DNA of 54,865 nt from Alphaproteobacteria bacterium (GTDB lineage: Bacteria > Pseudomonadota > Alphaproteobacteria > CAAHEQ01 > UBA3637), in contig JAZSGT010000025.1 in assembly GCA_045532865.1 (NCBI GenBank), positions 1 to 54,865 of the forward strand, given 5' to 3'. This document shows, in pieces, positions 4,724 through 26,040 of the stretch. The notes beneath the pieces were generated by a model. It did no database searches. It saw only the letters and a program-made list of their open reading frames with translations, and was not told the origin of the DNA. Within the stretch, counting starts at the first letter, position 1, and each line of letters begins with the position of its first letter. The position numbers and the translations under genes are program-made.

Positions 4724-5377
4724 TTAAGCTTTTTTGTCTAAAATAGGTTTGTTTTCTAAATAACGTTTAATAGGGGCATAAGAACGTCTATGTAAAGAAG
4801 TTATACCATGTTTCTCAATTGCATTAATGTGTTCCTTTGTACCATATCCTGCGTTTTTATCCCATCCATATTGAGGGTAAGACTTTGCCATTTCTTTCAT
4901 TAACTTATCTCTGGTTACTTTTGCTATAATGGAGGCAGATGCAATCGATAGAGATAAGTGATCGCCTTTTACAACAGCCTTGGCAGGAATGGTTATATTT
5001 TTTGGTAATCTATTTCCGTCAATTAAAAGTGCTGAAGCTGTTATGTTGTAATTTTTTTGAGCCTGGTCAATAGCTCTTTGCATTGCTAAAAATGTAGCCT
5101 GTAAAATGTTTTTTTCATCAATTTCTGTTGAAGAAGAAAGCCCAATCCCAATAATGGCGTTTGATTGCATGATAAGGTCAAATAATTGCTCTCTTTTGGA
5201 TGCTGAAAGTTTTTTAGAATCATCAATTTGTTCTGCAAGTTCATTTGGAATTTCAAAATTTGGCCAGCAAACACAAGCAGCAACAACAGGACCGCACCAA
5301 GGACCTCGTCCAGCCTCGTCTATACCAAAAACAAGACCTTTTGAATTAAACTCTTTTTCCAGATTAAAATTTGGCAT
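4724..5377 (-). CDS. rnhB: Ribonuclease HII
   Basis: 217 aa with GIDEAGRGPWCGPVVAA and other RNase HII signatures. Confidence 0.9.
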   Translation of the reverse strand: MPNFNLEKEFNSKGLVFGIDEAGRGPWCGPVVAACVCWPNFEIPNELAEQIDDSKKLSASKREQLFDLIMQSNAIIGIGLSSSTEIDEKNILQATFLAMQRAIDQAQKNYNITASALLIDGNRLPKNITIPAKAVVKGDHLSLSIASASIIAKVTRDKLMKEMAKSYPQYGWDKNAGYGTKEHINAIEKHGITSLHRRSYAPIKRYLENKPILDKKA

Positions 5378-5459
5378 TTTTTCTCCTGTTAATAATTAAT
5401 CAATCTATTTTGTTGTTTATCAAAATAGTTTTTCTTTTTCAAGTTGGAATAAGGTATAC

Positions 5460-6713
5460 CTACTTCAATCTATCAATAATTTTTTCAAAAGAAATAACCT
5501 CTTTAATTGGACCTAATGCAGAAAGAGTTGGTTGTTTAGAAATAATCTCTTGAGCAACTCTTTCAAGATCTGTTTTTTGAACAGCATCAATTTGAGCAAT
5601 AACTTCTTCTTTTGGTATAATTCTGCCAAATAAAATTGTATCGATGGCATTCATTTCAGCATGAGATGAAATGTTTTCTAATCTCATTAAAATATTTGCA
5701 CGCAGTCTTGCTTTTGAACGCTCAATTTCTTCTTCTGTTATGGAGTGCGGCAGTTTAACAAGTTCATCACACAAAACAGGCATTAACTCTTTAACTTCTT
5801 TTTCTCCAGTTCCGGCATATACACCAAAAATACCGGTATCTGTTTCTGCTGCATTAAATGCATAAATGGAGTAAACAAGACCTCTTTTTTCTCTGATTTC
5901 TTGGAAGAGACGAGAGGACATTCCTCCACCTAAAATACTGGCAAGAATTTTTGTTGTGTAATAATCATCGCTTGTGTATGGAGCACTTTCAAAACCTAAA
6001 ACCAGATTAACTTGTTCGTGTGATTTTATGACGCGTTTTTCACCACCTTTGTATGTGGCTTTTTTTGCTTTTGGCATTTTATGGTCATTAAAGGAGGTGA
6101 ATTTTTGAATGCAGGCGTTTACAAAATCATCATGATTAACAGCTCCAGATGCACTGATAATAATTCGGCTTGTTGTATATTGGGAATGCATATATTCTAA
6201 GAGTTGTTCACTTGAAATTTGTTTAACAGTTTCAACTGTTCCTAAAATAGCTCTGCCTAAAGGTTGATTTGGATAAGCAACTTCATTGAAGTAATCAAAA
6301 ACAAGATCATCAGGTGTATCATTTTGCATATTAATTTCTTGAATGATGACCCCTTTTTCTTTTGCTAATTCTTCTTTATCCATTACAGAATTTTGTAAAA
6401 TGTCTGCAATGATGTCTAATCCTTTTTCTTGATGTTCTTTTAAAACGCGAACATAATAAGCCGTCATGTTTTTGCCAGTATAGGCATTGATAAATCCACC
6501 AACATCTTCGATTTCTTTTGAAATTTGATATGAAGAACGTGAGGTTGTTCCTTTAAATGCCATATGCTCTAACATATGAGAAATACCATTTATTTCTTTT
6601 GTTTCATATCGTGCACCTACGCTTACCCATACGCCAAGTGAAACGCTATCTGCATGGTCAAATGAATCGGTGATAATTCTGATTTTATTTGGTAATGTTG
6701 TTGTTTTAATCAT
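5460..6713 (-). CDS. M16-family zinc metallopeptidase (insulinase / processing-peptidase-like)
   Basis: 417 aa with the inverted zinc motif HxxEH in HMLEHMAFKGT near the N-terminus. Confidence 0.85.
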   Translation of the reverse strand: MIKTTTLPNKIRIITDSFDHADSVSLGVWVSVGARYETKEINGISHMLEHMAFKGTTSRSSYQISKEIEDVGGFINAYTGKNMTAYYVRVLKEHQEKGLDIIADILQNSVMDKEELAKEKGVIIQEINMQNDTPDDLVFDYFNEVAYPNQPLGRAILGTVETVKQISSEQLLEYMHSQYTTSRIIISASGAVNHDDFVNACIQKFTSFNDHKMPKAKKATYKGGEKRVIKSHEQVNLVLGFESAPYTSDDYYTTKILASILGGGMSSRLFQEIREKRGLVYSIYAFNAAETDTGIFGVYAGTGEKEVKELMPVLCDELVKLPHSITEEEIERSKARLRANILMRLENISSHAEMNAIDTILFGRIIPKEEVIAQIDAVQKTDLERVAQEIISKQPTLSALGPIKEVISFEKIIDRLK

Positions 6714-6725
6714 TGTTATCCTATA

Positions 6726-8081
6726 TTAAAAATAAAAATATTTTGACAAGTTATCTAAAAGAGATGATGGTTCTTCTTTTGTAATAGATTTATCCTGTAT
6801 AATAACGGGAGGTTCTGAATGTAATGCTGGAATATTGTTTTGTTGTTCAATAGCTTGTTTCTCAATAGATGGTGTGATTTTATTAATAGCTTCAATTTCG
6901 GCATTTGATAAAATAATGTCTTGAGGAACAATATACTCTGGTAAAGGTTGCTGTTCAATTAAAACAATAGGATGAACCATTTTTGGCATTTGTGGCGAAG
7001 CAATTTCTTGAGGTTGTACGATCTCTTCTTGCTTAATTGGTTCAATTGTTTTTAAAGGTGCAGAAGGTGATTCCTGTATGTAGTGTACAACCTCTTCTTC
7101 AATAGCAACCGGTTCTCCCTCTTTAATGATTTGTTTGCGTGTTGTAATGGTTTTTCTAATCCCTTGAGTAGGAGGTAAAATAACTTTATCTTGCTCAATA
7201 AGTCCCGTTGTTGATGCAACATTTTGAGTCGATACTGCGTGTTGAACATGAGGTGTGTGCCCTTGCATGTTAAGAGTTAAATTTTGGCAACCTTCTGATG
7301 TGTTCATACAATCTTGACTAGCAATTGTTGGCTTTTCAAGATTCAAAAAAGGTGTTGGTTTCATCCATACTGGATCAACTTTTGTATGAGCTGGTGTCTC
7401 TATTTTGCTTTGAACAAGTTTTGCAACCTCGGGCATTGGAAAAGATGGATGTGATGGAATATGAGGTTTTTTTTCAAAGGTTAACAACATATATCCGGTT
7501 TTGTTTTGGTTGACCGCATTGTTTGATGCATAATGAACACCGATATTGCCTGTGTCAAAATTAATGTAATCAACATATTGCGCCAAGCTTAATGAAGATG
7601 GAGTGGTATGTGTTAAATTGCACGAAAATTCAGGGGCAATGACTTGAACGGCATTTTGATTTAAAATGCCCAATCTTGAAAATGCTGTTTGACAAGTTGG
7701 GAAAATATTACCTGCTTTTATTTTATAATCAATGATTAAATCGACTCCAGCTGAATCGGTTAATTTTTTTGTATCAATTAAACGGGCAGAAAGAATATCT
7801 AAATTAACTTGAGCATTGTTTGTTATGGCAGGAATAGATATCCCTTTGCCAATACATGTTTTTGATGTTGGATCAGCTTCGCAAATTGTAATAGGAGTGT
7901 TTATATTATTTTCTAACAAATAATTGATATGTTCGAATAAATGTTCTTTTGTTACTGCTTGAAACGCTGGAAGACAAGCTTTGTTTTGACATATGATTGG
8001 AGATACATCCATAGCTAAACTTTGGCTAGATAAGCATGTTATACTGATAAGAGAAAAGCTTTTAATTAATAGTTTTTTCAT
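6726..8081 (-). CDS. Hypothetical secreted protein
   Basis: 451-aa ORF with an N-terminal signal-peptide-like segment (MKKLLIKSFSLISITCLSSQSLA) and a Pro/Gln/Ile/Glu-rich C-terminal half. It is adjacent to, and co-oriented with, the M16 peptidase gene. Confidence 0.6.
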   Translation of the reverse strand: MKKLLIKSFSLISITCLSSQSLAMDVSPIICQNKACLPAFQAVTKEHLFEHINYLLENNINTPITICEADPTSKTCIGKGISIPAITNNAQVNLDILSARLIDTKKLTDSAGVDLIIDYKIKAGNIFPTCQTAFSRLGILNQNAVQVIAPEFSCNLTHTTPSSLSLAQYVDYINFDTGNIGVHYASNNAVNQNKTGYMLLTFEKKPHIPSHPSFPMPEVAKLVQSKIETPAHTKVDPVWMKPTPFLNLEKPTIASQDCMNTSEGCQNLTLNMQGHTPHVQHAVSTQNVASTTGLIEQDKVILPPTQGIRKTITTRKQIIKEGEPVAIEEEVVHYIQESPSAPLKTIEPIKQEEIVQPQEIASPQMPKMVHPIVLIEQQPLPEYIVPQDIILSNAEIEAINKITPSIEKQAIEQQNNIPALHSEPPVIIQDKSITKEEPSSLLDNLSKYFYF

Positions 8082-13421: not shown

Positions 13422-14116
13422 TGATTAGATTGTTTGTTGATGAAAAATTAGAAAAGGGAAGAAATATTTCTCTTGATGAAAAAAAAGCACATTATTTAAT
13501 GCATGTTATGCGTTGTAATGTGGGTGATGAGGTGTATCTTTTTAATGGAAAAGAGGGTGAATTTAAATCTACAATTTTGCAAGAATCAAAGAAAAAATTT
13601 TTACTCAATATTGTTGAAAAAACAAAAGAATTTTCACCTGTCGAATCATGTATTTTGTGCCCAGCAATTATTAAAAAAGAAAATATGGATTTTGTTTTGC
13701 AAAAAGCAACAGAGTTGGGAGTGAGTGAAATTTTTCCCGTTATAACGGATAGAACAGTTGTTCGGAATTTTAATTTAGAACGGGCAAAATCAATAGTTGC
13801 AGAAGCTGCAGAACAATCGGAAAGATTGGATTGTCCACTTGTGCATGAACCAACAACGTTGCTTGATTTGTTTAAAAAGTTGCCTGATAATGCAAGTGTT
13901 TTTTTTCTGTCTGAACGAGGTAAAACAACATATCAAAAAACTGATATTAAAACGCCTGTTTTTTTAATTGGCCCAGAAGGTGGTTTTACTTCAAAAGAAA
14001 TACAGTATATTGAAAATATAGAAAATGTAAAAACCGTTCATTTAGGAGAGACGATTTTGCGTGCTGAAACGGCTTCAATTGCCATTTTGTCTTGTTGGCA
14101 GTATCAAGTGTTTTAA
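13421..14116 (+). CDS. rsmE: 16S rRNA (uracil1498-N3)-methyltransferase
   Basis: 231 aa with RsmE-like layout and the C-terminal LIGPEGGFTSKE motif. Its start overlaps the upstream stop codon (TAATG). Confidence 0.85.
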   Translation: MIRLFVDEKLEKGRNISLDEKKAHYLMHVMRCNVGDEVYLFNGKEGEFKSTILQESKKKFLLNIVEKTKEFSPVESCILCPAIIKKENMDFVLQKATELGVSEIFPVITDRTVVRNFNLERAKSIVAEAAEQSERLDCPLVHEPTTLLDLFKKLPDNASVFFLSERGKTTYQKTDIKTPVFLIGPEGGFTSKEIQYIENIENVKTVHLGETILRAETASIAILSCWQYQVF

Positions 14117-14134
14117 TTTTTTTTATTTTAAATA

Positions 14135-14171
14135 TAAAAAAATCCCCACTATAAAGTAGGGATTTTTTTTC
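14135..14171. terminator. Bidirectional terminator between rsmE and groEL
   Basis: AAAAAAATCCCCACT-ATAA-AGTAGGGATTTTTTTT hairpin with one mismatch, flanked by an A-run and a T-run. Confidence 0.7.
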
Positions 14172-14186
14172 TTTTGTTTAAGAGGG

Positions 14187-15851
<1,665 letters not shown>

Positions 15852-16139
15852 TTAAGCTAAAATTCCGAGTACATCGGATTCTTTCATGATTAATAAGTCT
15901 TCACCATTAATTTTGATTTCAGTTCCAGACCATTTACTAAATAAGACTTTGTCGCCTTCTTTTAAAGTCATTGGAATCATATTTCCTTTTTCATCACGGC
16001 CACCAGGACCAACAGCAGTTACAACACCTTGAGATGGTTTTTCTTTTGCTGTGTCTGGAATGATGATGCCACCAGCTGTTCTGTTTTCTTCTTGTGTGCG
16101 TTTGATGACAACACGATCAAGTAATGGTTTAAAATTCAT
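15852..16139 (-). CDS. groS: Co-chaperonin GroES (Cpn10)
   Basis: 95 aa ([14 protein letters not shown]...[13 protein letters not shown]...), directly upstream of groEL. Confidence 0.95.
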
Positions 16140-16190
16140 TGTTTCTATATCCTTTCAAGTTTTAAGTTTCGATGTATATTAAATAGTATG

Positions 16191-16223
16191 TAAGCACGCA
16201 AAAGTCAAGGGTTTGCGTGCTTA
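16191..16223. promoter_or_regulatory. 12-bp-arm inverted repeat (CIRCE-like arms) upstream of groES
   Basis: TAAGCACGCAAA-N9-TTTGCGTGCTTA, 52-84 nt upstream of the groES ATG. On the minus strand it overlaps a TTGACT -35-like hexamer. The outer 9 nt of each arm match the CIRCE half-site TTAGCACTC at 7/9. Confidence 0.4.
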
Positions 16224-16277
16224 TTTTAATAGTTTTCAACAATAATTTTTAAACAAGAGAAGTTTTTATATAAAAAA

Positions 16278-18080
16278 TTATTCATCACCAATTTTAAGGG
16301 CATTGATAAATGCTGTTTGAGGGATTTCAACATTCCCAAATTGACGCATTCTCTTTTTACCTTCTTTTTGTTTTTCAAGCAGTTTTCTTTTGCGAGTGAT
16401 ATCCCCACCATAACATTTTGCTGTAACGTCTTTTCTAAAGGCAGAAATATCTTCTCTTGCAATGATTTTACCACCAATACTTGCTTGGATTGGAATTTTA
16501 AATTGATGACGAGGGATGAGGGTTTTTAATCTTTCGCAAATTTGGCGACCTCTACGTTCAGCTTGTGACCTGTGTGCCAAAAATGCTAAGGCATCAACTT
16601 GCTCACCGTGAACCATAATGTTCACACGTACAAGGTCACTGCGTTCATAATCTGAAACTTCATAGTCAAAGCTTGCATATCCTCTTGAAATGGACTTTAA
16701 TCTATCGTAAAAATCAAAAACAATTTCATTGAGTGGCAAATGATAAACAACCATTGCTCTGTTGCCAACATATGTTAAGTCTTTTTGGACACCACGCCTT
16801 TCTGTGCAAAGTTGTAAAATGCCACCTAAGTATTCATCAGGTGTTAAAATACTTGCTTTCACCCAGGGTTCTTCAATAAATTGAATAGATGAAGGGTCGG
16901 GCATGTCAGCAGGGTTATGCATAGTTAAAACAGTACCGTTTGTTAAATGCACATTATAAGCTACAGAAGGGGCTGTTGTGATAAGGTCTAAATTAAACTC
17001 ACGACTTAAACGCTCCTGGATAATTTCCATATGCAAAAGACCTAAGAACCCACATCTAAATCCTTGACCGAGTGCTTGAGATTTGTCAGGTGTGAATTGG
17101 AAACTTGCGTCATTTAATTGAAGTTTTCCAAGTGATTCTTTTAAGTTTTCATAATCACTCATATCCACAGGGAACAAAGAGCAAAAAACAACGCTTAAAC
17201 TTGGTTTAAACCCTGGGAGTGCCTCATTTGTTGGATTTTTTTCATCAGTAATTGTATCTCCAACACGTGTTTCACCAATGGATTTGATACCACAAATAAT
17301 AAAGCCAAGTTCACCTGTTTTAAGTTCAGTGGTATCTTGCATTTTTGGCATAAAGTGTCCCAATCTTTCCACTTTATAAACAGCATTTGTTGCCATCATT
17401 TTGATAGATGTACCTTTTTTGAGGGTGCCGTCAATAACACGAACTAAAACGATAATGCCTAAATATGAATCATACCAAGAATCAACAAGCATAGCTTTTA
17501 AAGGAGCATTTGAATCCCCTTCGGGAGCCGGTAATTTAGTAACGATTGTTTCTAAAACTTCATCAATACCAATTCCTGTTTTGGCAGAAATAAGAGGGGC
17601 TTCTGATGCGTCAATTCCAATCACATCTTCAATTTGAGCTTTGACTCTGTCAGGTTCGGCAGCCGGTAAGTCAATTTTGTTGATAATAGGCACAATTTCA
17701 TGATTTGCATCCAATGCTTTATAAACATTTGCAAGCGTCTGAGCTTCAACACCTTGTGATGCGTCAACAACCAAAAGAGAACCTTCACAAGCTGCAAGAG
17801 AACGGCTGACTTCATACCCAAAGTCAACGTGGCCTGGGGTGTCAATAAGATTGAGAATATAATCTTTCCCATCTTGTGCTTTGTAATTTAAACGAACAGT
17901 TTGTGCTTTAATGGTAATGCCTCGTTCGCGTTCAATATCCATGTTATCGAGAAGTTGTTCTTTCATTTCTCTATCAGTAACAGCCCCACATTTTTGAATG
18001 AGTCTGTCTGCAAGAGTTGATTTGCCATGGTCAATATGTGCAACAATTGAAAAATTTCTGATATGTGATAAGTCTGTCAT
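16278..18080 (-). CDS. lepA: Translation elongation factor 4 (LepA)
   Basis: 600 aa with the GTPase G1 motif AHIDHGKST and full-length LepA-type sequence. Confidence 0.97.
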
Positions 18081-18129
18081 TTGTAATCCTTTTGATTTTT
18101 GCGTATCTTATCAAAAAAAAATCAAAAAA

Positions 18130-18246
18130 TCAAGAAATAAAGAAAGCTCAAGACACCGAAGTGCTTGAGCTTAATATCGAAATGAATTTCTTATTAGCAA
18201 CTTGACAATCAAAACCAATATGATTTAGCTAAAAATCTTTTCGACA
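18130..18246 (-). ncRNA. Predicted tracrRNA of the type II-C CRISPR-Cas9 system
   Basis: The minus strand of 18197-18222 (CATATTGGTTTTGATTGTCAAGTTGC) is perfectly complementary to 26 nt of the minus-strand crRNA repeat. Upstream on the minus strand there is TTGACA (18280-18275), 17 nt, then AATAAT (18257-18252). Downstream come TAATAAG (nexus-like) and the hairpin GCTCAAGCAC-TTCG-GTGTCTTGAGC (18170-18146) followed by TTTCTTTATTTC. The ends are approximate. Confidence 0.8.
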
Positions 18247-18347
18247 CCTTTATTATTATCTTTAATTTTTTTTATGTCAACTTGTTTTTTGTAAAAAATA
18301 ATGATAATTCTTTAGTATTATTTGAAATTATCATTTGTGAGGGAAAA

Positions 18348-21300
18348 ATGAAATACAGATTAGGTCTAGATATGGGGGCAACATCTATTGGATGGGCTGT
18401 TTTTGATATTGAAAACAAAACACTTGTGAAAACAGGGGTTCGTATTTTTGATGATGGGCGTGAGGATAAAAGTAAAGCATCATTGTGTGTAAAAAGACGT
18501 GATGCAAGAGGGGCAAGACGTCGCCAAAATAGAAAAGTGATACAAAAAAAGGTACTTTTGAAAAAACTGGTTGACTTTGGTTTATTCCCTGTTGATAAAA
18601 ATGAACAGCAAAATTTGAAAAATCTTAATCCATATGAATTAAGAGCAAAAGCTTTGGATGAAAAAATTTCATTATTTGAGTTGGGACGTATTTGTTTTAA
18701 CCTTGTTCAAAGAAAGGGATTTTTATCAAATCGTAAAGATGATAAATCTGAAGGGGGTAAATTAAAAGAGGGTTATCAAAAATTAAAAGATGAAATGAGT
18801 GAAAATAATTGTCGCACATATGGTGAATATTTATATAAAAAATATCCAAATGTTCGACTAAAAAATACATTTGATGAAACAGGAAAATTTATAGGTGGAT
18901 TATTTCCTTTTAGAGAAATATACAAACAAGAATTTGATTGTATATTTGAAAAGCAACGTACTTTTTATCCTTCTATTTTAACAGATAGTGTTATACAACA
19001 TATTCAAGAAGTTTTGTTTTTTCAGCGACCATTGAAAGAGACAGAAGAAGGTGTTTGTACCTTTGAGGAAAATGAAAAATGTATTGCAAAAGCTCATCCC
19101 TTGTTTCAGTCATTTAGAATTTGGCAACAAATTGTTTCTTTGACATTTTCGGGGGAAATAGATTCTGAATACAATCAGTTAACAAAGGAGCGATTAGAAA
19201 AACTTGCTTATATTGCCGAACATCCGGCTAATTTTATTTCGACCAAAAAACGAGTAATAGCATATTCAAATATTAAATCTTGGCTAGAATTGGATAAAAA
19301 GGGTTACTTTAATTATGAAAAGCAAAAAAGTAATACAGAATTAGCAGAAGGTGTTTTGGTGAATACAACGGAATATGCAATTTCTCAATCACAATATTTT
19401 AAGGATTTTTGGAATGCTTTTGATGAAGATACAAAGGGTGAAATTATTAATATATTATCTCGTCCTCAAAGGTATATTGATTTTTCAAAAACAAAATTAT
19501 CAATAGAAAAACAAGATGAATTAATTAAAAATTATTTAAAAAAGCGTTTCCATCTTTCTGAAGATGCAGCAAATGAATTATTATATGAAATTAATTTAGA
19601 AGATGGTTTTTCATCTTTGTCACAAAAGGCAATCTCAAAAATTTTACCATTTATGATGCATGGGCAATTATATTCTGATGCATGTGAGTCTGCTGGATAT
19701 CATCATTCTGTTAAAGAGTATACAAAAAGAGATTTTCTGCCATATTATGGTGAAATATTGGCTCAAAGTTGTTTAGGGAAGAAGCCTAATCCTAAAACAG
19801 AGGAAGAAAGATATGGCAAGATTAATAATGCAACAGTTCATGTTGCCCTTAATCAGATGAGGCATTTGGTTAACGAATTGATATCATTGTATGGTAAGCC
19901 ATTTGACATTTCTATTGAATATGCAAGAGATTTACCAGCTTCAACTGCAGAACGTAAAAAATTGATTCAAACACGCGATAGTAATGAGGCTGAAAATCAA
20001 AAGATTATTGATGAATTGAATAAAAAAATTGAACCAAGGAATTGGTCAAAAAAAGATATTGAAAAGTATAAAATCTGGAAAAATCTTGGTACACCAAAGG
20101 GGGCGAATCCATTAGAGTGTCGGGAATGTCCTTTTACAGGTGAGAAAATATCAGTTTCGGCTTTAATGAATGGTGATTTGTTCCAAGTAGAGCATTTAAT
20201 CCCATTTTCAAGATGTTTTGATGACAGCATTCATAATAAAGTGATAGCTTCAGCAATGGCGAACAAATATAAAGGAGCAAAAACGCCTTACGAAGCTTTT
20301 CACGAAAGTAAAGACGGATTTGATTGGAGAGAAATTCAAAAACGTGCCAAAAAATTAAATTTGGAACAACAATGGCGATTTTCTAAAAATGCAATGATAA
20401 AGTTTGAGGAAAAAGAGGGTCCAATTGCGAGATCTCTTAATGATACAAGATATATGACAAGATTGTTGCAACAATATTTGTTGCCGATTGTGCATGAAGA
20501 TGGTAGCAAAACCGTACAAGCAGTTGTGGGGCAATTAACATCAATGGTTAGAAAATCATGGGGTTTAAATCAATATAAAAATAAAGAAGAAGCAGAAGCT
20601 TATCGTGCCTTACATAATCATCATGCTATGGATGCAGTTGTTGTTTCAGCAATTGATAGAGGGCAAATTGAAAAGGTATCTAGAGATTTAAAAAAGATGT
20701 CAGATTTTGTTATTGATCGTTTTAAAGATGACTTATTTAAATTCAAAGATACAAGTGTTTCAAAAGAAGAAAAAGCTGAGTTGAAGAAAAAAATTAAGGA
20801 TTTTATCAGGGATAAAAAAGAAGGTATCGTGAATGAATATATTCAAATGCCAGAGGGAATGGTTGTATCGGCATTGCGAACGCTTGTTGAAAATATTAAT
20901 ATTTCACATAAACCTAAACTTAAAAAATTAACTGATTCTCATTCAACGATAGGTAAATTGCATGAAGACACAGCCTATGGTTTTAAAGAGTTTATTGATG
21001 ATGTATCTTTAAAAGCAAAATTTAAGTGTGGAGAAAAGATTGTTGATAAAGAGATTGTTGAATATATTCCAATGTTTTATAATAAAGATGATAAGAAGGC
21101 ATATTATGATGCTTATAAAGCATGGTTTATATTAGATGGAAAAGCCAAAACATTAGATGCAAAAACAAAAGAAGAAAAACAAATCAAAAAAGAATTGGAA
21201 AGACAAGAAAAAGAGGCTATCCAATTATTACGGGAATCTTCTTTGAAAGCGTTTAAATGGTTTGTTGGTGGAGGTAATTTTTGTGCTGAGATTTATGAAA

Positions 21301-21764
21301 TTAATCCTCAAAACAAAATCAGAGGCGTTGTAACAAAAGATGGGGGTGTTTGGAAGGGTGAAATTGTTTCAAATTATAATGCCACTATTCGAAATGAAAG
21401 AGGTGAAAAAATCTCTTATTGGCAATATAAATACCCAAATGCAAAACGGATTATGTCATTAAAACGGAATGACATGGTGCTGGGAACTTTTACACGTGAA
21501 GAGGCGTATCAAGATGATTTTCCTTTGGGTATTCAAAATTATGTAAGAAGCATTTTTGAAAAAGATGATACACTTATTGAAACTAATGTTTTGTTTAGAG
21601 TGAAGAAAATTGGGGGAAATGGGCAAATTGCATTAACGCCCCATGATATTGCTAAAGAAGAAAAAAACACAAAATCGTGGGTTGGGACAGCAATATCATT
21701 ACAAAAATATAGAGCAAAAAAAGTTTTTGTTTCACCAACAGGGAGAATTTTAAATGCCAAATAG
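18348..21764 (+). CDS. cas9: Cas9 endonuclease, type II-C-like (1138 aa)
   Basis: The expected Cas9 motifs are present: RuvC-I MKYRLGLDMGATSIGWAV; Arg-rich bridge helix RRDARGARRRQNRK; RuvC-II ISIEYARDL; HNH QVEHLIPFSRCFDDSIHNKVIASAMANKYKGAKTPYEAF; RuvC-III HNHHAMDAVVV. The ATG at 18348 has GAGGG upstream. The ORF-track TTG at 18282 is rejected as the start. Confidence 0.95.
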   Translation: MKYRLGLDMGATSIGWAVFDIENKTLVKTGVRIFDDGREDKSKASLCVKRRDARGARRRQNRKVIQKKVLLKKLVDFGLFPVDKNEQQNLKNLNPYELRAKALDEKISLFELGRICFNLVQRKGFLSNRKDDKSEGGKLKEGYQKLKDEMSENNCRTYGEYLYKKYPNVRLKNTFDETGKFIGGLFPFREIYKQEFDCIFEKQRTFYPSILTDSVIQHIQEVLFFQRPLKETEEGVCTFEENEKCIAKAHPLFQSFRIWQQIVSLTFSGEIDSEYNQLTKERLEKLAYIAEHPANFISTKKRVIAYSNIKSWLELDKKGYFNYEKQKSNTELAEGVLVNTTEYAISQSQYFKDFWNAFDEDTKGEIINILSRPQRYIDFSKTKLSIEKQDELIKNYLKKRFHLSEDAANELLYEINLEDGFSSLSQKAISKILPFMMHGQLYSDACESAGYHHSVKEYTKRDFLPYYGEILAQSCLGKKPNPKTEEERYGKINNATVHVALNQMRHLVNELISLYGKPFDISIEYARDLPASTAERKKLIQTRDSNEAENQKIIDELNKKIEPRNWSKKDIEKYKIWKNLGTPKGANPLECRECPFTGEKISVSALMNGDLFQVEHLIPFSRCFDDSIHNKVIASAMANKYKGAKTPYEAFHESKDGFDWREIQKRAKKLNLEQQWRFSKNAMIKFEEKEGPIARSLNDTRYMTRLLQQYLLPIVHEDGSKTVQAVVGQLTSMVRKSWGLNQYKNKEEAEAYRALHNHHAMDAVVVSAIDRGQIEKVSRDLKKMSDFVIDRFKDDLFKFKDTSVSKEEKAELKKKIKDFIRDKKEGIVNEYIQMPEGMVVSALRTLVENINISHKPKLKKLTDSHSTIGKLHEDTAYGFKEFIDDVSLKAKFKCGEKIVDKEIVEYIPMFYNKDDKKAYYDAYKAWFILDGKAKTLDAKTKEEKQIKKELERQEKEAIQLLRESSLKAFKWFVGGGNFCAEIYEINPQNKIRGVVTKDGGVWKGEIVSNYNATIRNERGEKISYWQYKYPNAKRIMSLKRNDMVLGTFTREEAYQDDFPLGIQNYVRSIFEKDDTLIETNVLFRVKKIGGNGQIALTPHDIAKEEKNTKSWVGTAISLQKYRAKKVFVSPTGRILNAK

Positions 21765-22653
21765 GATTATAGAACTTATGAGTGATGGACTGAAAGTGTC
21801 AGTTAATAGAGGCTTTTTGCACGTTGAAAAAGAAGGGAATGTTCTAGCGAACATTCCCTTTAATTCTATCTTATCTTTGGTTGTAACGGGGCATCAAATT
21901 ATTTATACCGACAATCTACTTAGACGTTTATGTGAAGAAAATATCCCACTCATTATTTTGGGGAAAAATTATCTTCCCACTGGGATGCTATATTCTTTTG
22001 AGGGACACCATAAGCAGATGGAAATACAGCATCTGCAAATTGAACAAAAAAAGCCATTATACAAAAAACTTTGGCAATCTATTATTCAAGAAAAGATTAA
22101 AAATCAGTCAAAAGTTTTGGATTATTTTGGACTAGAAAATCCAATTAAAGAAATTTCAAAACATGTATTGTCAGGAGATACGGATAACAAAGAAGGTTAT
22201 GCTGCGAAACTCTATTTTAAAAGTTTGTTTGGGAATAATTTTGTGCGTAATCGCGAATTAGATGGTGTGAATGCTTATTTAAATTATGGATACGCTGTTT
22301 TACGTTCAGCTCTGGCTAGATATGTTGTTGCGAGTGGATTAAATCCCTCTTATGGTATTAATCATCACAATAAGCTTAACCCTTTTTGTTTGGTGGATGA
22401 TTTAATTGAGCCATTTAGACCTGTTGTTGATAAAATTGTTTTTGGGTTTTTTATTCAAAAAAAGATTTTATCCGAATTAACAAGGGATGATAAGGCTGTG
22501 TTTTCAGCTTTGCTTATGGAAGAATTTAAAACAAAAGAGGGATATTCTCCGTTTTATGTTATTTTGCAAGAATGTGTATGGGATTTGGTTAAAAGTTATA
22601 AAAAAGAAAAGTCTTGTTTTGATTTTGACCCATATTTGATTAGTGATGATTAA
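21754..22653 (+). CDS. cas1: CRISPR-associated endonuclease Cas1 (type II)
   Basis: 299 aa with NYGYAVLRSALARYVVASGLNPSYGINHHNKLNPFCLVDDLIEPFRP. It overlaps the cas9 3' end by 11 nt. Confidence 0.95.
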   Translation: MPNRIIELMSDGLKVSVNRGFLHVEKEGNVLANIPFNSILSLVVTGHQIIYTDNLLRRLCEENIPLIILGKNYLPTGMLYSFEGHHKQMEIQHLQIEQKKPLYKKLWQSIIQEKIKNQSKVLDYFGLENPIKEISKHVLSGDTDNKEGYAAKLYFKSLFGNNFVRNRELDGVNAYLNYGYAVLRSALARYVVASGLNPSYGINHHNKLNPFCLVDDLIEPFRPVVDKIVFGFFIQKKILSELTRDDKAVFSALLMEEFKTKEGYSPFYVILQECVWDLVKSYKKEKSCFDFDPYLISDD

Positions 22654-22990
22654 AATGAAAGAAAAATTAAATGGAAGAAAACTCATGTGGATGATGGTTA
22701 TGTTTGATTTGCCAACAGAGACAAAAGCACAAAGAAAATCAGCAACAAAATTTCGTAAATTTTTGATGGATGAAGGTTTTGAAATGGTACAATTTTCAGT
22801 TTATGTTCAATTCACAGGGACATGGGAAAGCTCACAAAAATTTGTGAGAGCTATTCAACAAAATAATCCCACATATGGAGATGTGAATATTTTGTTTTTC
22901 ACCGATAAACAATTTGAAAGTATTATCCACATTAAAAATAGTGAGAAAAAAAAGTTAAAAAAACAGCCTGATCAATTTGAATTATTCTAA
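22643..22990 (+). CDS. cas2: CRISPR-associated endoribonuclease Cas2
   Basis: About 110 aa (MWMMVMFDLPTETKAQRKSATKFRKFLMDEGFEMVQFSVYVQF). It overlaps the cas1 stop. Alternative ATG starts at 22646 and 22655 are possible. Confidence 0.9.
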   Translation: MMIKMKEKLNGRKLMWMMVMFDLPTETKAQRKSATKFRKFLMDEGFEMVQFSVYVQFTGTWESSQKFVRAIQQNNPTYGDVNILFFTDKQFESIIHIKNSEKKKLKKQPDQFELF

Positions 22991-23115
22991 AATTGATGAA
23001 ATTTGATTGCGAATCGGAGTGAGAAAACGAATTAATTTGATGAAAAATGATAAGAAAATATATTTAAAAAAATGAATTTTTTAAGTGAAAACTGAGGGTG
23101 AAAATAGTGTTTTTT

Positions 23116-23161
23116 AAAATAAAAATGCTTAATTTTGATTTAAAAATCAATATATTAAGCA
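23116..23161 (-). terminator. Minus-strand intrinsic terminator between CRISPR array and cas2
   Basis: Hairpin TGCTTAAT..TTGAT...ATCAA..ATTAAGCA (23126-23161). On the minus strand it is followed by TTTTTATTTT (23125-23116). There is no T-run on the plus-strand side. Confidence 0.55.
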
Positions 23162-23166
23162 CTTAT

Positions 23167-24915
23167 ATTGTAGCATATTGGTTTTGATTGTCAAGTTGCA
23201 ACGAAAAAGGTTATGAGGTTTTAAACGAGATTATTGTAGCATATTGGTTTTGATTGTCAAGTTGCAACTATGAAACGATAAAAGAGTCTCCCTTTTTGAT
23301 TGTAGCATATTGGTTTTGATTGTCAAGTTGCAACGAAGTTTCATAGAATATTTTATATCTTTTTATTGTAGCATATTGGTTTTGATTGTCAAGTTGCAAC
23401 TCTTTTGTTAAAGGAAATTGAAGAATATTTATTGTAGCATATTGGTTTTGATTGTCAAGTTGCAACAAAGGGGTGGTCGGCGAATATGGCGAATAAATTG
23501 TAGCATATTGGTTTTGATTGTCAAGTTGCCACGCCTGCCTCTTGTGCTTCAAGTTCGGCTATATTGTAGCATATTGGTTTTGATTGTCAAGTTGCAACGG
23601 GTGGTATTCTAATTCCCCTTCTTGAATTATTGTAGCATATTGGTTTTGATTGTCAAGTTGCAACCCAAAAATACACCATGGCAGATGTAATTAAATTGTA
23701 GCATATTGGTTTTGATTGTCAAGTTGCAACCATCCCGCATTTGCAACCGAACCTTTCTGCATTGTAGCATATTGGTTTTGATTGTCAAGTTGCAACTTAT
23801 TGCTTGATTCTTTTAATGAAGCCGCAATTGTAGCATATTGGTTTTGATTGTCAAGTTGCAACAAATATCTAGATACATGCCTACGCCTAAACATTGTAGC
23901 ATATTGGTTTTGATTGTCAAGTTGCAACCCAAAGTCGTTGAGCCTCAATTTGTTGCATATTGTAGCATATTGGTTTTGATTGTCAAGTTGCAACTAATGT
24001 TCTGACTCATATGGCTGTCATCAAATTGTAGCATATTGGTTTTGATTGTCAAGTTGCAACTTTTTCCCTTCCGTAAATGTCGAATCGTGATTGTAGCATA
24101 TTGGTTTTGATTGTCAAGTTGCAACGATTGACCTTATTAAGCGTGAGTTAAGAAAATTGTAGCATATTGGTTTTGATTGTCAAGTTGCAACTGATGATGG
24201 CTGATGGTGATGAGGCTGCGAATTGTAGCATATTGGTTTTGATTGTCAAGTTGCAACGTACCACGCTAAGTTGAGGTGTTTCATTGGATTGTAGCATATT
24301 GGTTTTGATTGTCAAGTTGCAACGTCCCCTCTTTCAAGTTTTTCAATATAGCATTGTAGCATATTGGTTTTGATTGTCAAGTTGCAACTCAACAATGTCC
24401 TTCTCGTTCGTAAATTCATTGTAGCATATTGGTTTTGATTGTCAAGTTGCAACTAACATTAGCAATCATTGCCTTAATGTTGGATTGTAGCATATTGGTT
24501 TTGATTGTCAAGTTGCAACCGAGTCAGCGTTAAATAAACCGGATTCATAATTGTAGCATATTGGTTTTGATTGTCAAGTTGCAACCGTTAATGTGTCGCA
24601 GTCTATTTTTTACATATTGTAGCATATTGGTTTTGATTGTCAAGTTGCAACGATTGGTTGTGCGGCTTCATTAAAAGAATCATTGTAGCATATTGGTTTT
24701 GATTGTCAAGTTGCAACCGCCTTTATTGCTTTGAAGAATTGCCCTGTATTGTAGCATATTGGTTTTGATTGTCAAGTTGCAACGTACGCACCCGTGAAGT
24801 TACGAGTCGCATTATTGTAGCATATTGGTTTTGATTGTCAAGTTGCAACTTAAACTGGAAAAGACTCCTTGTCTTTTCAATTGTAGCATATTGGTTTTGA
24901 TTGTCAATTTGAGTA
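23167..24915 (-). CRISPR. CRISPR array: 27 x 36-nt repeats, 26 spacers
   Basis: The plus-strand repeat is ATTGTAGCATATTGGTTTTGATTGTCAAGTTGCAAC. Repeat starts: 23167, 23233, 23299, 23365, 23431, 23497, 23563, 23629, 23695, 23761, 23827, 23893, 23959, 24025, 24090, 24156, 24222, 24288, 24353, 24418, 24484, 24550, 24616, 24682, 24748, 24814, 24880. Spacers are 30 nt, except spacers 14, 18 and 19 at 29 nt. Repeat 6 has one SNP (23530 A>C), and the last repeat is degenerate in its final 8 nt. The minus strand is inferred from the repeat polarity (GTTG...CTACAAT), the tracrRNA orientation, the embedded promoters and the terminator position. Confidence 0.97.
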
Positions 24916-25113
24916 GATTGTTTTCACTGCGATAATGAAAAAGAGTGTTTGTAAATTTTAATGGTTTAATGTGTTGCTTCTTTTTTGTGAGTAAACGAGT
25001 CTTTTTTCTTAAATCTTTTTGTTAAAAATGAAAGATAATAATTTACTTTTGAAAGTTTTTTTTCTATAATAACACTAAATGTAAGTTTTTTTATAATTTT
25101 TAAGGAGAAAGAT

Positions 25114-25437
25114 ATGCGCAATATTGGCGATTTAATGAAAAAAGCTCAAATGGTTCAATCTCAAATGACAATCCTTCAAACAAAGATGGAAAAACAAGAA
25201 TTTGCAGGTGAAGCTGCAAATGGTGCTGTTAAAGTTGTTGTAACAGGGAAACATTTGCCAATTTCTGTTTCAATTAATCCAGCTATTGTTGATCCTCAGG
25301 ATACGGAAACATTGGAAGATTTGGTTTTAATCGCTATGCGTTCTGCATACGAAAATGTTGAAAAAACAATGGCTGCAGAAATGGAACGTATTCAATCTTC
25401 ATTAGGCTTGCCTTCAGGCTTTAAAATGCCATTTTAA
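25114..25437 (+). CDS. ybaB: Nucleoid-associated protein YbaB/EbfC family
   Basis: 107 aa (NIGDLMKKAQMVQSQM...GAVKVVVTGKH...). SD AAGGAG lies upstream, and recR follows. Confidence 0.9.
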   Translation: MRNIGDLMKKAQMVQSQMTILQTKMEKQEFAGEAANGAVKVVVTGKHLPISVSINPAIVDPQDTETLEDLVLIAMRSAYENVEKTMAAEMERIQSSLGLPSGFKMPF

Positions 25438-25446
25438 AGGTTTGAG

Positions 25447-26040
25447 ATGGCTGCTCCAGAATTAGAACAACTCATTAGTTTGCTTTCAAAATTGCCTGCG
25501 TTGGGACCTCGGTCTGCAAGGCGGGCAGTTTTGTCATTGTTGAAACAAAAAGAAAGTAAATTTGCCCCACTAGTGGCTTCAATGCAAACGGTTTTGGAAC
25601 GGGTTCAACCTTGTCCACAATGTGGAAATATGGATACGAGTGTTCCTTGCTCTGTTTGTTCTGATCTGAAAAGAGATTCTTCAATTGTCTGTGTTGTTCA
25701 AGATGTTGCAGATTTGTGGGCTCTTGAACGGGCCGGTGTATTTAAGGGTGTATATCATGTGTTGGGCGGTGTTCTTTCTGCTTTGGATGGTATAGGACCT
25801 GATGAACTTAAGATTGAAGAATTAATTGAACGTATCACAACAAAAAATGTTAAAGAAATAATTTTAGCCCTTCCAGCTTCTGTTGAAGGGCAAACAACTG
25901 TTCATTATCTTTCGGATAAATTGAAAGATTATGATGTGAATATTTCAACGCTTTCTAGAGGTGTTCCTGTTGGAGGAGAGTTGGATTATTTAGATGATGG
26001 AACGCTACAGCTGGCATTTAAGGCAAGGCGAAATGTATAG
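25447..26040 (+). CDS. recR: Recombination protein RecR
   Basis: 197 aa with an N-terminal HhH, the Cys4 zinc finger CPQCGNMDTSVPCSVCSD and a Toprim-like region. Confidence 0.95.
   Translation: MAAPELEQLISLLSKLPALGPRSARRAVLSLLKQKESKFAPLVASMQTVLERVQPCPQCGNMDTSVPCSVCSDLKRDSSIVCVVQDVADLWALERAGVFKGVYHVLGGVLSALDGIGPDELKIEELIERITTKNVKEIILALPASVEGQTTVHYLSDKLKDYDVNISTLSRGVPVGGELDYLDDGTLQLAFKARRNV

What the first reader, a model, noticed from the sequence alone, without database searches (positions are those of the whole stretch)
18130..18280. Minus-strand tracrRNA gene divergent from cas9, with its own consensus-like promoter and terminator
The minus strand at 18222-18197 reads CATATTGGTTTTGATTGTCAAGTTGC, a perfect 26-nt anti-repeat to the minus-strand crRNA repeat (its nt 4-29). 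It is preceded by TTGACA-17 nt-AATAAT (18280-18252), which predicts a start near 18246. It is followed by TAATAAG, similar to the AATAAGG nexus start of known II-C tracrRNAs. A 10-bp GC-rich hairpin with a TTCG loop (18170-18146) and a T-rich tail complete it. This gives a predicted RNA of about 105-115 nt, enough to design a single-guide RNA directly. The tracrRNA terminator sits only ~60 nt from the lepA start codon on the same strand.
Basis: partly seen in the sequence, partly recalled or inferred. Interest (0 to 1): 0.65.

Follow-up and report, generated by a model that had tools for sequence, protein, structure and literature searches.

The report
Ordinary type II-C tracrRNA gene, confirmed
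The small gene next to cas9 is almost certainly the tracrRNA, the helper RNA that pairs with CRISPR RNAs to guide Cas9, in an uncultured gut alphaproteobacterium; it is a well-supported new example of a well-known kind of gene.

Summary
Minus strand 18222-18197 is a perfect 26-nt complement of the minus-strand CRISPR repeat. It is the only such site outside the array in the 1.5-Mb genome.

Upstream lies TTGACA-17 nt-AATAAT. Downstream lie a conserved AAUAAG junction, a small GAAA/UUUC hairpin and a 12-bp hairpin with a UUCG loop and a U-rich tail.

Seven relatives (Cas9 58-85% identical) carry the same gene at the same place:
- The -35 box and the 17-nt spacing are kept although the spacer sequence differs.
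- Each anti-repeat follows the changes of its own repeat.
- The terminator stem shows 6 of 12 pairs changed on both sides, with 99% of cells paired.
- Between the window and its closest relative, identity rises from about 0.6 to above 0.9 at the predicted start, G18245.

The predicted RNA is about 105-113 nt. It should work as in Neisseria and Campylobacter type II-C systems: it pairs with repeat-promoted crRNAs and loads Cas9.

No RNA-seq data were available, so expression and activity remain inferred. I class it as a new member of a known kind, of low to moderate interest.

The parts
18275..18280 (-). tracrRNA promoter -35 box, TTGACA
   Evidence: 11/12 match together with the -10 box. TTGAC(A/T) is kept in all 8 loci, always 17 nt from the -10 box, while the spacer sequence differs. 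It is 6/6 identical to L001, whereas the flanking spacer is 10/17.
18252..18257 (-). tracrRNA promoter -10 box, AATAAT
   Evidence: Relatives have CATACT, TATATT, CATAGT, TATATA or AATAAT at the same spacing.
18223..18245 (-). Predicted start (G18245) and 5' leader of the primary tracrRNA, GUGUCGAAAAGAUUUUUAGCUAAAU
   Evidence: A purine lies 7 nt after the -10 box in all 8 loci, followed by UC(G/A). Identity to L001 rises from 0.67 upstream to 0.91 from this point. The start is inferred, not mapped.
18197..18222 (-). Anti-repeat, a perfect 26-nt complement of crRNA repeat nt 4-29
   Evidence: Duplex energy with the repeat is -41.3 kcal/mol. It is the only such site outside the array in the genome.
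18193..18196 (-). Bulged U18196 followed by AAU, which can pair with repeat nt 3-1 (GUU) to close the lower stem
   Evidence: Read from the sequence. GCUAAUAAG is invariant in all 11 aligned sequences. The junction ...CAAU|AAGG is the same in N. meningitidis tracrRNA (sequence printed in PMC8038530).
18179..18192 (-). AAG junction and nexus-like hairpin, GAAA-UUCA-UUUC (stem 18190-18187 with 18182-18179)
   Evidence: The stem is invariant and the loop varies (UUCA, UUUA, UACU) in 11 sequences. No covariation is possible, so the fold is inferred.
18173..18178 (-). Conserved linker GAUAUU between the nexus hairpin and the terminator
   Evidence: Invariant in all 11 aligned sequences.
18144..18172 (-). 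Terminator hairpin: 12 pairs, one bulged U, UUCG loop
   Evidence: Predicted by the fold. Of its 12 pairs, 6 have changes on both sides and 99.2% of cells are paired. For the whole modelled structure (16 pairs) the covariation score is 0.434, against 0.132 in shuffles (0 of 500 reach it) and at most 0.13 when partners are slid. Seven G.U cells fit only the minus strand.
18131..18143 (-). U-rich tail, UCUUUAUUUCUUG; expected 3' end near 18140-18133
   Evidence: A T-rich tail follows the hairpin in all relatives.
18105..18133 (-). Candidate lepA promoter, TTGATT-17-TGaTAAGAT, overlapping the tracrRNA U-tract
   Evidence: Read from the sequence. This stretch is 33/33 identical to L001 across 18143-18111. 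Inferred only; it falls below the threshold of the scan tool.
18351..21764 (+). cas9 (1137 aa), divergent from the tracrRNA gene
   Evidence: TIGR01865, 547.6 bits, profile positions 1-1070 of 1070. The nearest solved chains are Cas9s of 1082-1095 aa, E 8e-65 to 5e-59.
21754..22990 (+). cas1 (21754-22653) and cas2 (22643-22990)
   Evidence: TIGR03639, 249 bits; TIGR01573, 74.8 bits.
23167..24915 (-). CRISPR array: 27 repeats of 36 nt and 26 spacers, read as crRNA on the minus strand
   Evidence: Each repeat carries TTGACA-16-TGCTACAAT on the minus strand (sequence). A hairpin with a T-run follows repeat 1 on the minus strand at 23161-23116.

Best explanation
This is the tracrRNA gene of a type II-C CRISPR-Cas9 locus.

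How it most likely works:
1. A strong sigma-70-type promoter (TTGACA-17-AATAAT) starts transcription at about G18245 on the minus strand. An intrinsic terminator stops it near 18140-18133, giving a primary RNA of about 105-113 nt.
2. Its anti-repeat (18222-18197, plus AAU after a one-base bulge) pairs with the first 29 nt of the repeat in crRNAs. Those crRNAs are made on the same strand from a promoter inside every repeat.
3. Cas9 binds the duplex together with the conserved AAUAAG junction, the small GAAA/UUUC nexus-like hairpin, the GAUAUU linker and the terminator hairpin. The dual RNA then guides Cas9 to DNA.
4. RNase III, which the genome encodes, may trim the duplex. As in Neisseria, it may not be required.

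Shown here: the sequence features, their uniqueness in the genome, their conservation, and the co-variation.
Inferred: transcription, the exact RNA ends, Cas9 binding and cleavage.
For: Locus and site:
- The locus is a full cas9-cas1-cas2-array module.
- The 26-nt perfect anti-repeat has 0 matches expected by chance. It is the only significant non-array match in the 1.51-Mb genome. The next best matches are 19 nt with 1 mismatch and 15 nt, and both lie inside ORFs.
- The promoter scores 11/12.
- The repeat:anti-repeat duplex is -41.3 kcal/mol. The type II-C median reported in PMC6546382 is -39.4.

Relatives:
- Seven relatives (Cas9 58-85% identical) have the same divergent gene upstream of cas9.
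- In the six with an array in hand, the anti-repeat follows its own repeat: GUUGC to GUCGC, UUUUGAUUG to UAUUAGAUG, GAUUG to GAAUG, and CAUAUU to CAUGUU opposite repeat CACGUU. Each pairs with its own repeat at -37 to -49 kcal/mol. Cross-pairing is weaker between the two repeat groups, win/L001/L002/L031 and L032-L034.
- For the modelled structure in 11 sequences, 99.4% of cells are paired, 6 pairs have changes on both sides, and the covariation score is 0.434 against 0.132 in shuffles (0 of 500) and at most 0.13 in slid controls.
- The G.U pairs and the U-tract fit only the minus strand.
- Identity to the closest relative steps from about 0.6-0.67 to 0.91-0.96 exactly at the predicted start.

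Other support:
The only other hits there are two weak ones inside the array.
- RNase III is present.
- Published surveys place the tracrRNA mostly upstream of cas9 in types II-A and II-C, and report arrays transcribed opposite to the cas operon in N. meningitidis and C. jejuni (PMC3737331; PMC6546382).
Against: - There is no expression evidence. No RNA runs hold this organism. The four runs of unknown kind hold only contigs of relatives, without strand information.
- No Rfam family matches, even at E up to 10.
- The nexus-like stem is invariant, so its pairing cannot be tested by covariation.
- Co-variation of repeat and anti-repeat could come from gene conversion (the 'reset' proposed in PMC6546382) rather than selection on pairing. 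Either origin still implies a coupled pair.
- A perfect, bulge-free 26-bp upper duplex is less typical than the imperfect hybrids usually described.
- The tail persists in two relatives in which no Cas9 was found. So sequence retention alone does not prove present-day function.
Confidence: 0.92

Rival explanations
1. It is an inert relic: a solitary, inverted CRISPR repeat fragment left by rearrangement. It is not transcribed as a functional RNA, and the true tracrRNA lies elsewhere or the system is defective.
For: Degraded copies of the tail do exist in relatives in which no Cas9 was found (G002 and G017). This shows that such sequences can persist as fossils. No expression data are available.
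Against: - No other anti-repeat exists in the window or the genome.
- The promoter spacing, the junction, the nexus and the terminator are conserved wherever an intact cas9 is present.
- The fossils have lost exactly the anti-repeat and the promoter, whereas the window's copy is perfect.
- Cas9 matches its family profile over its whole length, and the array has 26 distinct spacers.
Confidence: 0.04
2. The functional transcript comes from the plus strand. It would be a crRNA-like, repeat-sense element in the cas9 5' region, for example a scaRNA-like or regulatory RNA, and not a minus-strand tracrRNA.
For: The plus strand at 18197-18222 carries the repeat-sense sequence, including TTGACA. scaRNAs with degenerate repeats are described in type II systems (PMC6199352 and PMC13431127, listed).
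Against: - On the plus strand there is no -10 box at a workable spacing after TTGACA, and no U-tract; an A-tract is there instead.
- The 7 G.U cells of the hairpin would become A.C mismatches on the plus strand.
- The conserved promoter faces the minus strand.
- A plus-strand RNA would have the same sense as the crRNAs and could not pair with them.
- The repeat-internal promoter, the hairpin with a T-run after repeat 1, and the resemblance to the Neisseria repeat (GUUG... start in PMC8038530; the ...ACAAU end recalled from memory) all place crRNAs on the minus strand.
Confidence: 0.02
3. The hairpin and T-tract serve mainly as an insulator or terminator, and as part of the promoter region of lepA. 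On this view their conservation reflects lepA expression rather than tracrRNA function.
For: - A candidate lepA promoter overlaps the U-tract, and this stretch is 33/33 identical to L001.
- The tail is kept next to lepA in G002, where no Cas9 was found.
Against: The same tail follows the anti-repeat in relatives where the downstream gene is not lepA (L002, L031-L034, L037). It therefore travels with cas9, not with lepA. This role would also not exclude the tracrRNA role.
Confidence: 0.02

Closest known systems
Neisseria meningitidis type II-C tracrRNA and crRNA system (NmeCas9)
   Same: - Minimal cas9-cas1-cas2 operon.
- A 36-nt repeat that starts GUUG.
- Array transcribed opposite to the cas operon (PMC3737331).
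- The lower stem ends in ...AAU paired to GUU and is followed by AAG (the Nme tracrRNA reads ...GCUACAAUAAGGCCG..., PMC8038530).
- A tail that ends in a GC-rich terminator hairpin.
- The closest solved structures are Cas9 chains of 1082-1095 aa. From memory, some of these are NmeCas9 entries.
- From memory: the Nme repeat also ends ...UGCUACAAU, and that ending acts as an extended -10 promoter in each repeat.
   Different: - Cas9 is only distantly related (E about 1e-59 to 1e-65, aligned over the N-terminal 780-870 residues).
- From memory, the Nme tracrRNA gene lies between cas9 and cas1. Here it is upstream of cas9 and divergent.
- The tail is shorter here, with an AU-rich 4-bp nexus-like hairpin and one terminator hairpin.
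- The upper duplex is perfect over 26 bp.
- The repeats here also carry a full -35 box.
Campylobacter jejuni type II-C tracrRNA
   Same: A compact type II-C locus, an AT-rich genome, an array transcribed opposite to the cas genes (PMC3737331), and an A-rich junction after the anti-repeat (the last point from memory).
   Different: From memory, the C. jejuni tracrRNA lies between cas2 and the array, and its guide RNA forms a triple-helix tail. No such fold is conserved here. The long-range pairing predicted is specific to the window and absent from the relatives.
General tracrRNA architecture (Chylinski et al. 2013, PMC3737331; Faure et al. 2018, PMC6546382)
   Same: - Anti-repeat, nexus stem-loop and Rho-independent terminator.
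- Position upstream of cas9, transcribed in either direction.
- Hybrid stability close to the type II-C median.
- Junction and lower stem are the most conserved parts.
   Different: No Rfam family matches this RNA. I believe, from memory, that Rfam's tracrRNA family covers the Streptococcus type only. The hybrid has no internal bulge apart from one U next to the lower stem.

Membership tests
tracrRNA of type II CRISPR-Cas | An anti-repeat complementary to the CRISPR repeat of the same locus | tested here: met
   26/26 perfect match, 0 expected by chance. Duplex energy -41.3 kcal/mol. Unique in the genome.
tracrRNA of type II CRISPR-Cas | Encoded within or next to a cas9-cas1-cas2 locus with an array | tested here: met
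   The predicted start is 105 nt from the cas9 ATG, in divergent orientation. The position is the same in 7 relatives.
tracrRNA of type II CRISPR-Cas | Its own promoter on the strand that makes the anti-repeat complementary to the crRNA | tested here: met
   TTGACA-17-AATAAT scores 11/12. The -35 box and the 17-nt spacing are kept in 8 loci despite diverged spacer sequence. This is a sequence prediction only.
tracrRNA of type II CRISPR-Cas | A Rho-independent terminator at the 3' end | tested here: met
   A 12-bp hairpin with a U-rich tail. Six pairs show compensatory change, and covariation is well above the controls. The consensus scan missed it because of the bulge.
tracrRNA of type II CRISPR-Cas | A nexus stem-loop directly after the lower stem | tested here: inconclusive
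   GAAA-N4-UUCC-type hairpin, here GAAA-N4-UUUC, follows the AAUAAG junction. Its 4 pairs never vary in 11 sequences, so there is no covariation to test.
tracrRNA of type II CRISPR-Cas | The first repeat nucleotide next to the spacer is paired (96% of dual guides, PMC6546382) | tested here: met
   With U18196 bulged, AAU 18195-18193 pairs with repeat nt 3-1, G1 forming a G.U pair (sequence; rule cited). This is my own manual pairing. RNAduplexfold stopped at the 26-bp core plus flanking bases.
tracrRNA of type II CRISPR-Cas | Expressed as a small RNA that binds Cas9 and is needed for interference | not testable with these tools
   No RNA runs were found for this organism. Biochemistry is needed.
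Rfam tracrRNA family | A match to the curated covariance model | tested here: not met
   No tracrRNA hit, even at E up to 10. From memory, that family covers Streptococcus-type type II-A tracrRNAs, so this does not argue against the function.
Type II-C CRISPR-Cas | cas9, cas1 and cas2 only, with no csn2 or cas4 | tested here: met
   The array starts 177 nt after cas2.

The most novel reading that the evidence does not exclude
The primary tracrRNA may carry a built-in switch. Its conserved 5' leader (U18246/G18245-UCGAAA, down to 18239) is complementary to UUUCGAUA (18182-18175). That target is the 3' strand of the nexus hairpin plus the linker. In the free RNA this 8-bp helix is part of the minimum-free-energy fold. 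It would close the anti-repeat into a loop and hide the nexus. Pairing with crRNA, or RNase III removal of the leader, would release the nexus for Cas9. The evidence does not exclude this: pairing is kept in 85% of cells. Nor does it support it, because the 3' partner never varies.
Probability: 0.08. Interest if true: 0.5.

Novelty: new member of a known kind. Interest (0 to 1): 0.25.

Why it matters
It completes the parts list of a previously uncharacterised 1137-aa type II-C Cas9 from an uncultured gut alphaproteobacterium. The crRNA direction, the tracrRNA ends and the conserved tail modules are now defined well enough to design a dual or single guide RNA and test the enzyme. The set of 8 homologous tracrRNAs is a clean example of a repeat and its anti-repeat evolving together. 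It could also seed a covariance model for a tracrRNA group that Rfam does not match. Beyond that, the biology is what is already known from Neisseria and Campylobacter.

Tried and rejected
- Rfam scan of 17000-25500 at E up to 10 gave only chance miRNA and sRNA hits and no tracrRNA family.
- The simple terminator scan found none, because the stem has a bulge.
- Searches for RNA runs found none for 14000-18300. Four runs of unknown kind were listed for 18100-18300. They contain only contigs of relatives (85-95% identical), with no strand or end information. One of those contigs shows a further compensatory variant of the terminator stem.
- The metagenome scan with the Cas9 alignment added only one locus, L037.
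- I tried to find protospacers, to fix crRNA orientation and the PAM independently. The array against the phage collection gave no match. Three spacer cores against IMG/VR gave no match.
- The only protospacer found is in the organism's own recA gene. It cannot define a PAM.
- The long-range pairing AAGAAAUU/UUAUUUCUU around the terminator, predicted for the window, is rejected. The relatives have unrelated sequence after the terminator.
- The 5' leader:nexus helix was counted. It is 85% paired with no covariation, so it is inconclusive.
- The next-best repeat-like sites in the genome (C21:14568-14586 and C4:16677-16691) lie inside ORFs and are chance matches.
- A full-text search for the tail sequence found no paper.

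Full report
**Observation**

The minus strand of 18222-18197 reads CATATTGGTTTTGATTGTCAAGTTGC. This 26-mer occurs 28 times in the window at up to 3 mismatches. Twenty-seven of those are on the plus strand in the array at 23167-24915. One is here, on the minus strand. None were expected in 100 shuffles. It is therefore complementary to nt 4-29 of the repeat read on the minus strand, GTTGCAACTTGACAATCAAAACCAATATGCTACAAT.

The promoter-like site TTGACA-17-AATAAT at 18280-18252 on the minus strand scores 11/12.

It extends to 18172-18144 and has 12 pairs, one bulged U and a UUCG loop, followed by UCUUUAUUUCUUG. The consensus terminator scan missed it because of the bulge.

**Context**

- cas9 lies at 18351-21764 on the plus strand. 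The protein is 1137 aa and matches TIGR01865 at 547.6 bits over the whole profile.
- cas1 (type II NMENI class) and cas2 follow. There is no csn2 or cas4, so this is a type II-C layout.
- lepA lies at 16278-18080 on the minus strand.
- Relatives identify the organism as an uncultured gut alphaproteobacterium, with MAGs from sheep rectum and similar sources.
- The nearest solved structures are Cas9 chains of 1082-1095 aa, with E 8e-65 to 5e-59.

**Which strand makes the crRNA**

Three features place the crRNAs on the minus strand.
- Each repeat carries TTGACA-16 nt-TGCTACAAT on the minus strand.
- Just after the cas-proximal repeat there is a hairpin followed by a T-run, on the minus strand only.
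- The minus-strand repeat starts GUUG, like the N. meningitidis repeat printed in PMC8038530. It ends ACAAU, which from memory the full-length Nme repeat also does.

Chylinski et al. report that the arrays of N. meningitidis and C. jejuni are transcribed opposite to the cas operon (PMC3737331). A minus-strand crRNA needs a minus-strand tracrRNA at 18197-18222. That is the strand carrying the promoter and the U-tract.

**Uniqueness**

A blastn-short search of the repeat against the 1.51-Mb genome (95% complete) gives this site as the only significant match outside the array (26/26, E 7.6e-9). The next best are 19 nt with one mismatch and 15 nt. Both lie inside ORFs.

The only other hits are two weak ones inside the array.

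The genome has a second type II-C locus on another contig, with an unrelated repeat. Its duplex with this tracrRNA is only -10.4 kcal/mol.

**Comparative evidence**

Homologous Cas9 genes were found in seven other loci.

| Locus | Genome | Cas9 identity |
|---|---|---|
| L001 | G014 | 85% |
| L031 | G001 | 65% |
| L002 | G104 | 62% |
| L032 | G013 | 59% |
| L033 | G005 | 59% |
| L034 | G039 | 58% |
| L037 | metagenome contig | 58% |

Every one has the same gene just upstream of cas9, in divergent orientation.

1. Promoter. TTGAC(A/T) is followed by exactly 17 nt of unrelated sequence and then a -10 box: AATAAT, CATACT, TATATT, CATAGT or TATATA. A purine lies 7 nt after the -10 box, followed by UC(G/A). 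This predicts the start at G18245.

2. Anti-repeat follows repeat. For the six relatives with an array in hand:
   - L001: repeat ...CCAACGUG, anti-repeat CAUGUUGG. One position is fully compensated and one is a wobble.
   - L002 and L031: GAUUG becomes GAAUG in both partners.
   - L032-L034: GUUGC becomes GUCGC and UUUUGAUUG becomes UAUUAGAUG in both partners. The complementarity also lengthens towards the 3' end of the repeat.
   - Each tracrRNA pairs with its own repeat at -37 to -49 kcal/mol. Pairing is weaker across the two repeat groups, win/L001/L002/L031 and L032-L034.
   - The window's value, -41.3, is close to the type II-C median of -39.4 kcal/mol in Faure et al. (PMC6546382).

3. 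Invariant core. GCUAAUAAG, the GAAA...UUUC hairpin and GAUAUUAA never change.

4. Terminator stem. The sequences differ strongly but the shape is kept: AAGCUCAAGCAC, AAGCUCUUUCAC, AAACGCCUUUAC, AAGCCCGACUAC and AAACCCGACUAC.
   - On an alignment fitted by the covariance model (11 sequences), 99.4% of cells pair and 6 of the 12 terminator pairs have changes on both sides.
   - The covariation score is 0.434, against 0.132 in shuffles (0 of 500 reach it) and at most 0.13 with slid partners.
   - The alignment was fitted to this structure, which favours it. The compensatory changes are nevertheless plain in the raw sequences.
   - Seven cells are G.U pairs. They would be mismatches on the other strand.

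5. Conservation step. Against L001, identity is 0.59-0.67 in the non-transcribed intergenic DNA, apart from the -35 box at 6/6. It is 0.91-0.96 from the predicted start to the terminator. The two differences in the stem compensate each other.

**Anatomy of the predicted RNA (minus strand)**

| Part | Coordinates |
|---|---|
| Start | G18245 |
| 5' leader | 18245-18223 |
| Anti-repeat | 18222-18197 |
| Bulged U | 18196 |
| AAU pairing with repeat GUU | 18195-18193 |
| AAG junction | 18192-18190 (G18190 is also the first base of the nexus stem) |
| Nexus-like GAAA-UUCA-UUUC | 18190-18179 |
| Linker GAUAUU | 18178-18173 |
| Terminator hairpin | 18172-18144 |
| U-rich tail | to about 18133 |

The junction mirrors the N. 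meningitidis tracrRNA...GCUACAAU|AAGGCCG (PMC8038530). A fused repeat-GAAA-tracrRNA folds as expected, at -60.8 kcal/mol with z -12.95. The outer pairing around the terminator in that fold is not conserved in the relatives, so I reject it.

**Mechanism**

By analogy with the type II-C systems of Neisseria and Campylobacter, crRNAs start inside each spacer from the promoter within the repeat. They pair with the tracrRNA and the pair is bound by Cas9. RNase III is encoded in the genome and may trim the duplex. These steps are inferred.

No RNA data could be obtained. There are no RNA runs for the organism. The four runs of unknown kind hold only contigs of relatives.

**Comparison with what is known**

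This is the standard tracrRNA architecture (PMC3737331; PMC6546382). A position upstream of cas9 is the common one for type II-C, and either orientation is known. It matches no Rfam family, and its tail sequence was found in no paper in the full-text library. It is therefore a new member of a known kind, not a new kind.

**Side observations**

- Two relatives in which no Cas9 was found keep degraded copies of the tail.
- The second type II-C locus has the same layout, but its cas9 is interrupted by one TAG.
- Spacer 16 matches the genome's own recA at 29/30 nt.
- Spacers 10 and 23 overlap on one target.
- A candidate lepA promoter overlaps the tracrRNA U-tract.
- The 5' leader is complementary to the 3' half of the nexus plus the linker, without covariation.

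**Verdict**

Confidence that this is the functional tracrRNA gene is about 0.92. Interest is low to moderate.

Noticed in passing
window 24192-24221 (spacer 16); own genome C72:36944-36972: Spacer 16 matches the organism's own genome at 29/30 nt, in the 3' end of recA (349-aa ORF, C72 36938-37984, minus strand). The single mismatch is at crRNA-sense position 1, the PAM-distal end. The 3' flank in crRNA sense is TTTGACGG. It is either a self-targeting spacer or one acquired from a very close relative's DNA.
   Followed up: partly
window 23797-23826 (spacer 10) and 24652-24681 (spacer 23): The two spacers share 21 nt on opposite strands. They were therefore taken from overlapping protospacers of one target. 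No match to that core was found in IMG/VR.
   Followed up: partly
own genome C64:18000-27817 (L036): anti-repeat at L036 4835-4811, cas9 at 4886-7945, array from 9242: A second type II-C locus sits in the same genome with the same layout: a divergent tracrRNA with TTGACT-17-TATCAT, a 25-nt anti-repeat and a hairpin. Its repeat is unrelated (ATTATAGCACATTTAAATTGGAAAGGAAACTATAAC). Its cas9 is split by one in-frame TAG into ORFs of 363 and 656 aa.
   Followed up: partly
L047 1501-1598 (G002) and L045 1440-1616 (G017): These are tracrRNA fossils in relatives in which no Cas9 was found. G002 keeps the tail, identical to the window's, next to lepA, but has lost the anti-repeat and the promoter. G017 has a two-repeat array remnant that directly abuts a degraded tracrRNA leader and tail, as if cas2-cas1-cas9 and the tracrRNA promoter had been deleted.
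   Followed up: partly
window 18105-18133, minus strand: A candidate lepA promoter, TTGATT-17-TGaTAAGAT, overlaps the tracrRNA U-tract. The stretch is 100% identical to L001. Read-through from the tracrRNA promoter into lepA is possible.
   Followed up: no
window 18246-18239 with 18182-18175, minus strand: The tracrRNA 5' leader, UGUCGAAA, is complementary to UUUCGAUA, the 3' strand of the nexus hairpin plus the linker. The helix is part of the minimum-free-energy fold of the free RNA and is kept in 85% of cells across 11 sequences. The 3' partner never varies, so there is no covariation.
   Followed up: partly
window 18281-18296, minus strand: The sequence AAAAACAAG directly upstream of the tracrRNA -35 box is conserved in all relatives. 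It could be an UP-like element or part of the divergent cas9 promoter.
   Followed up: no
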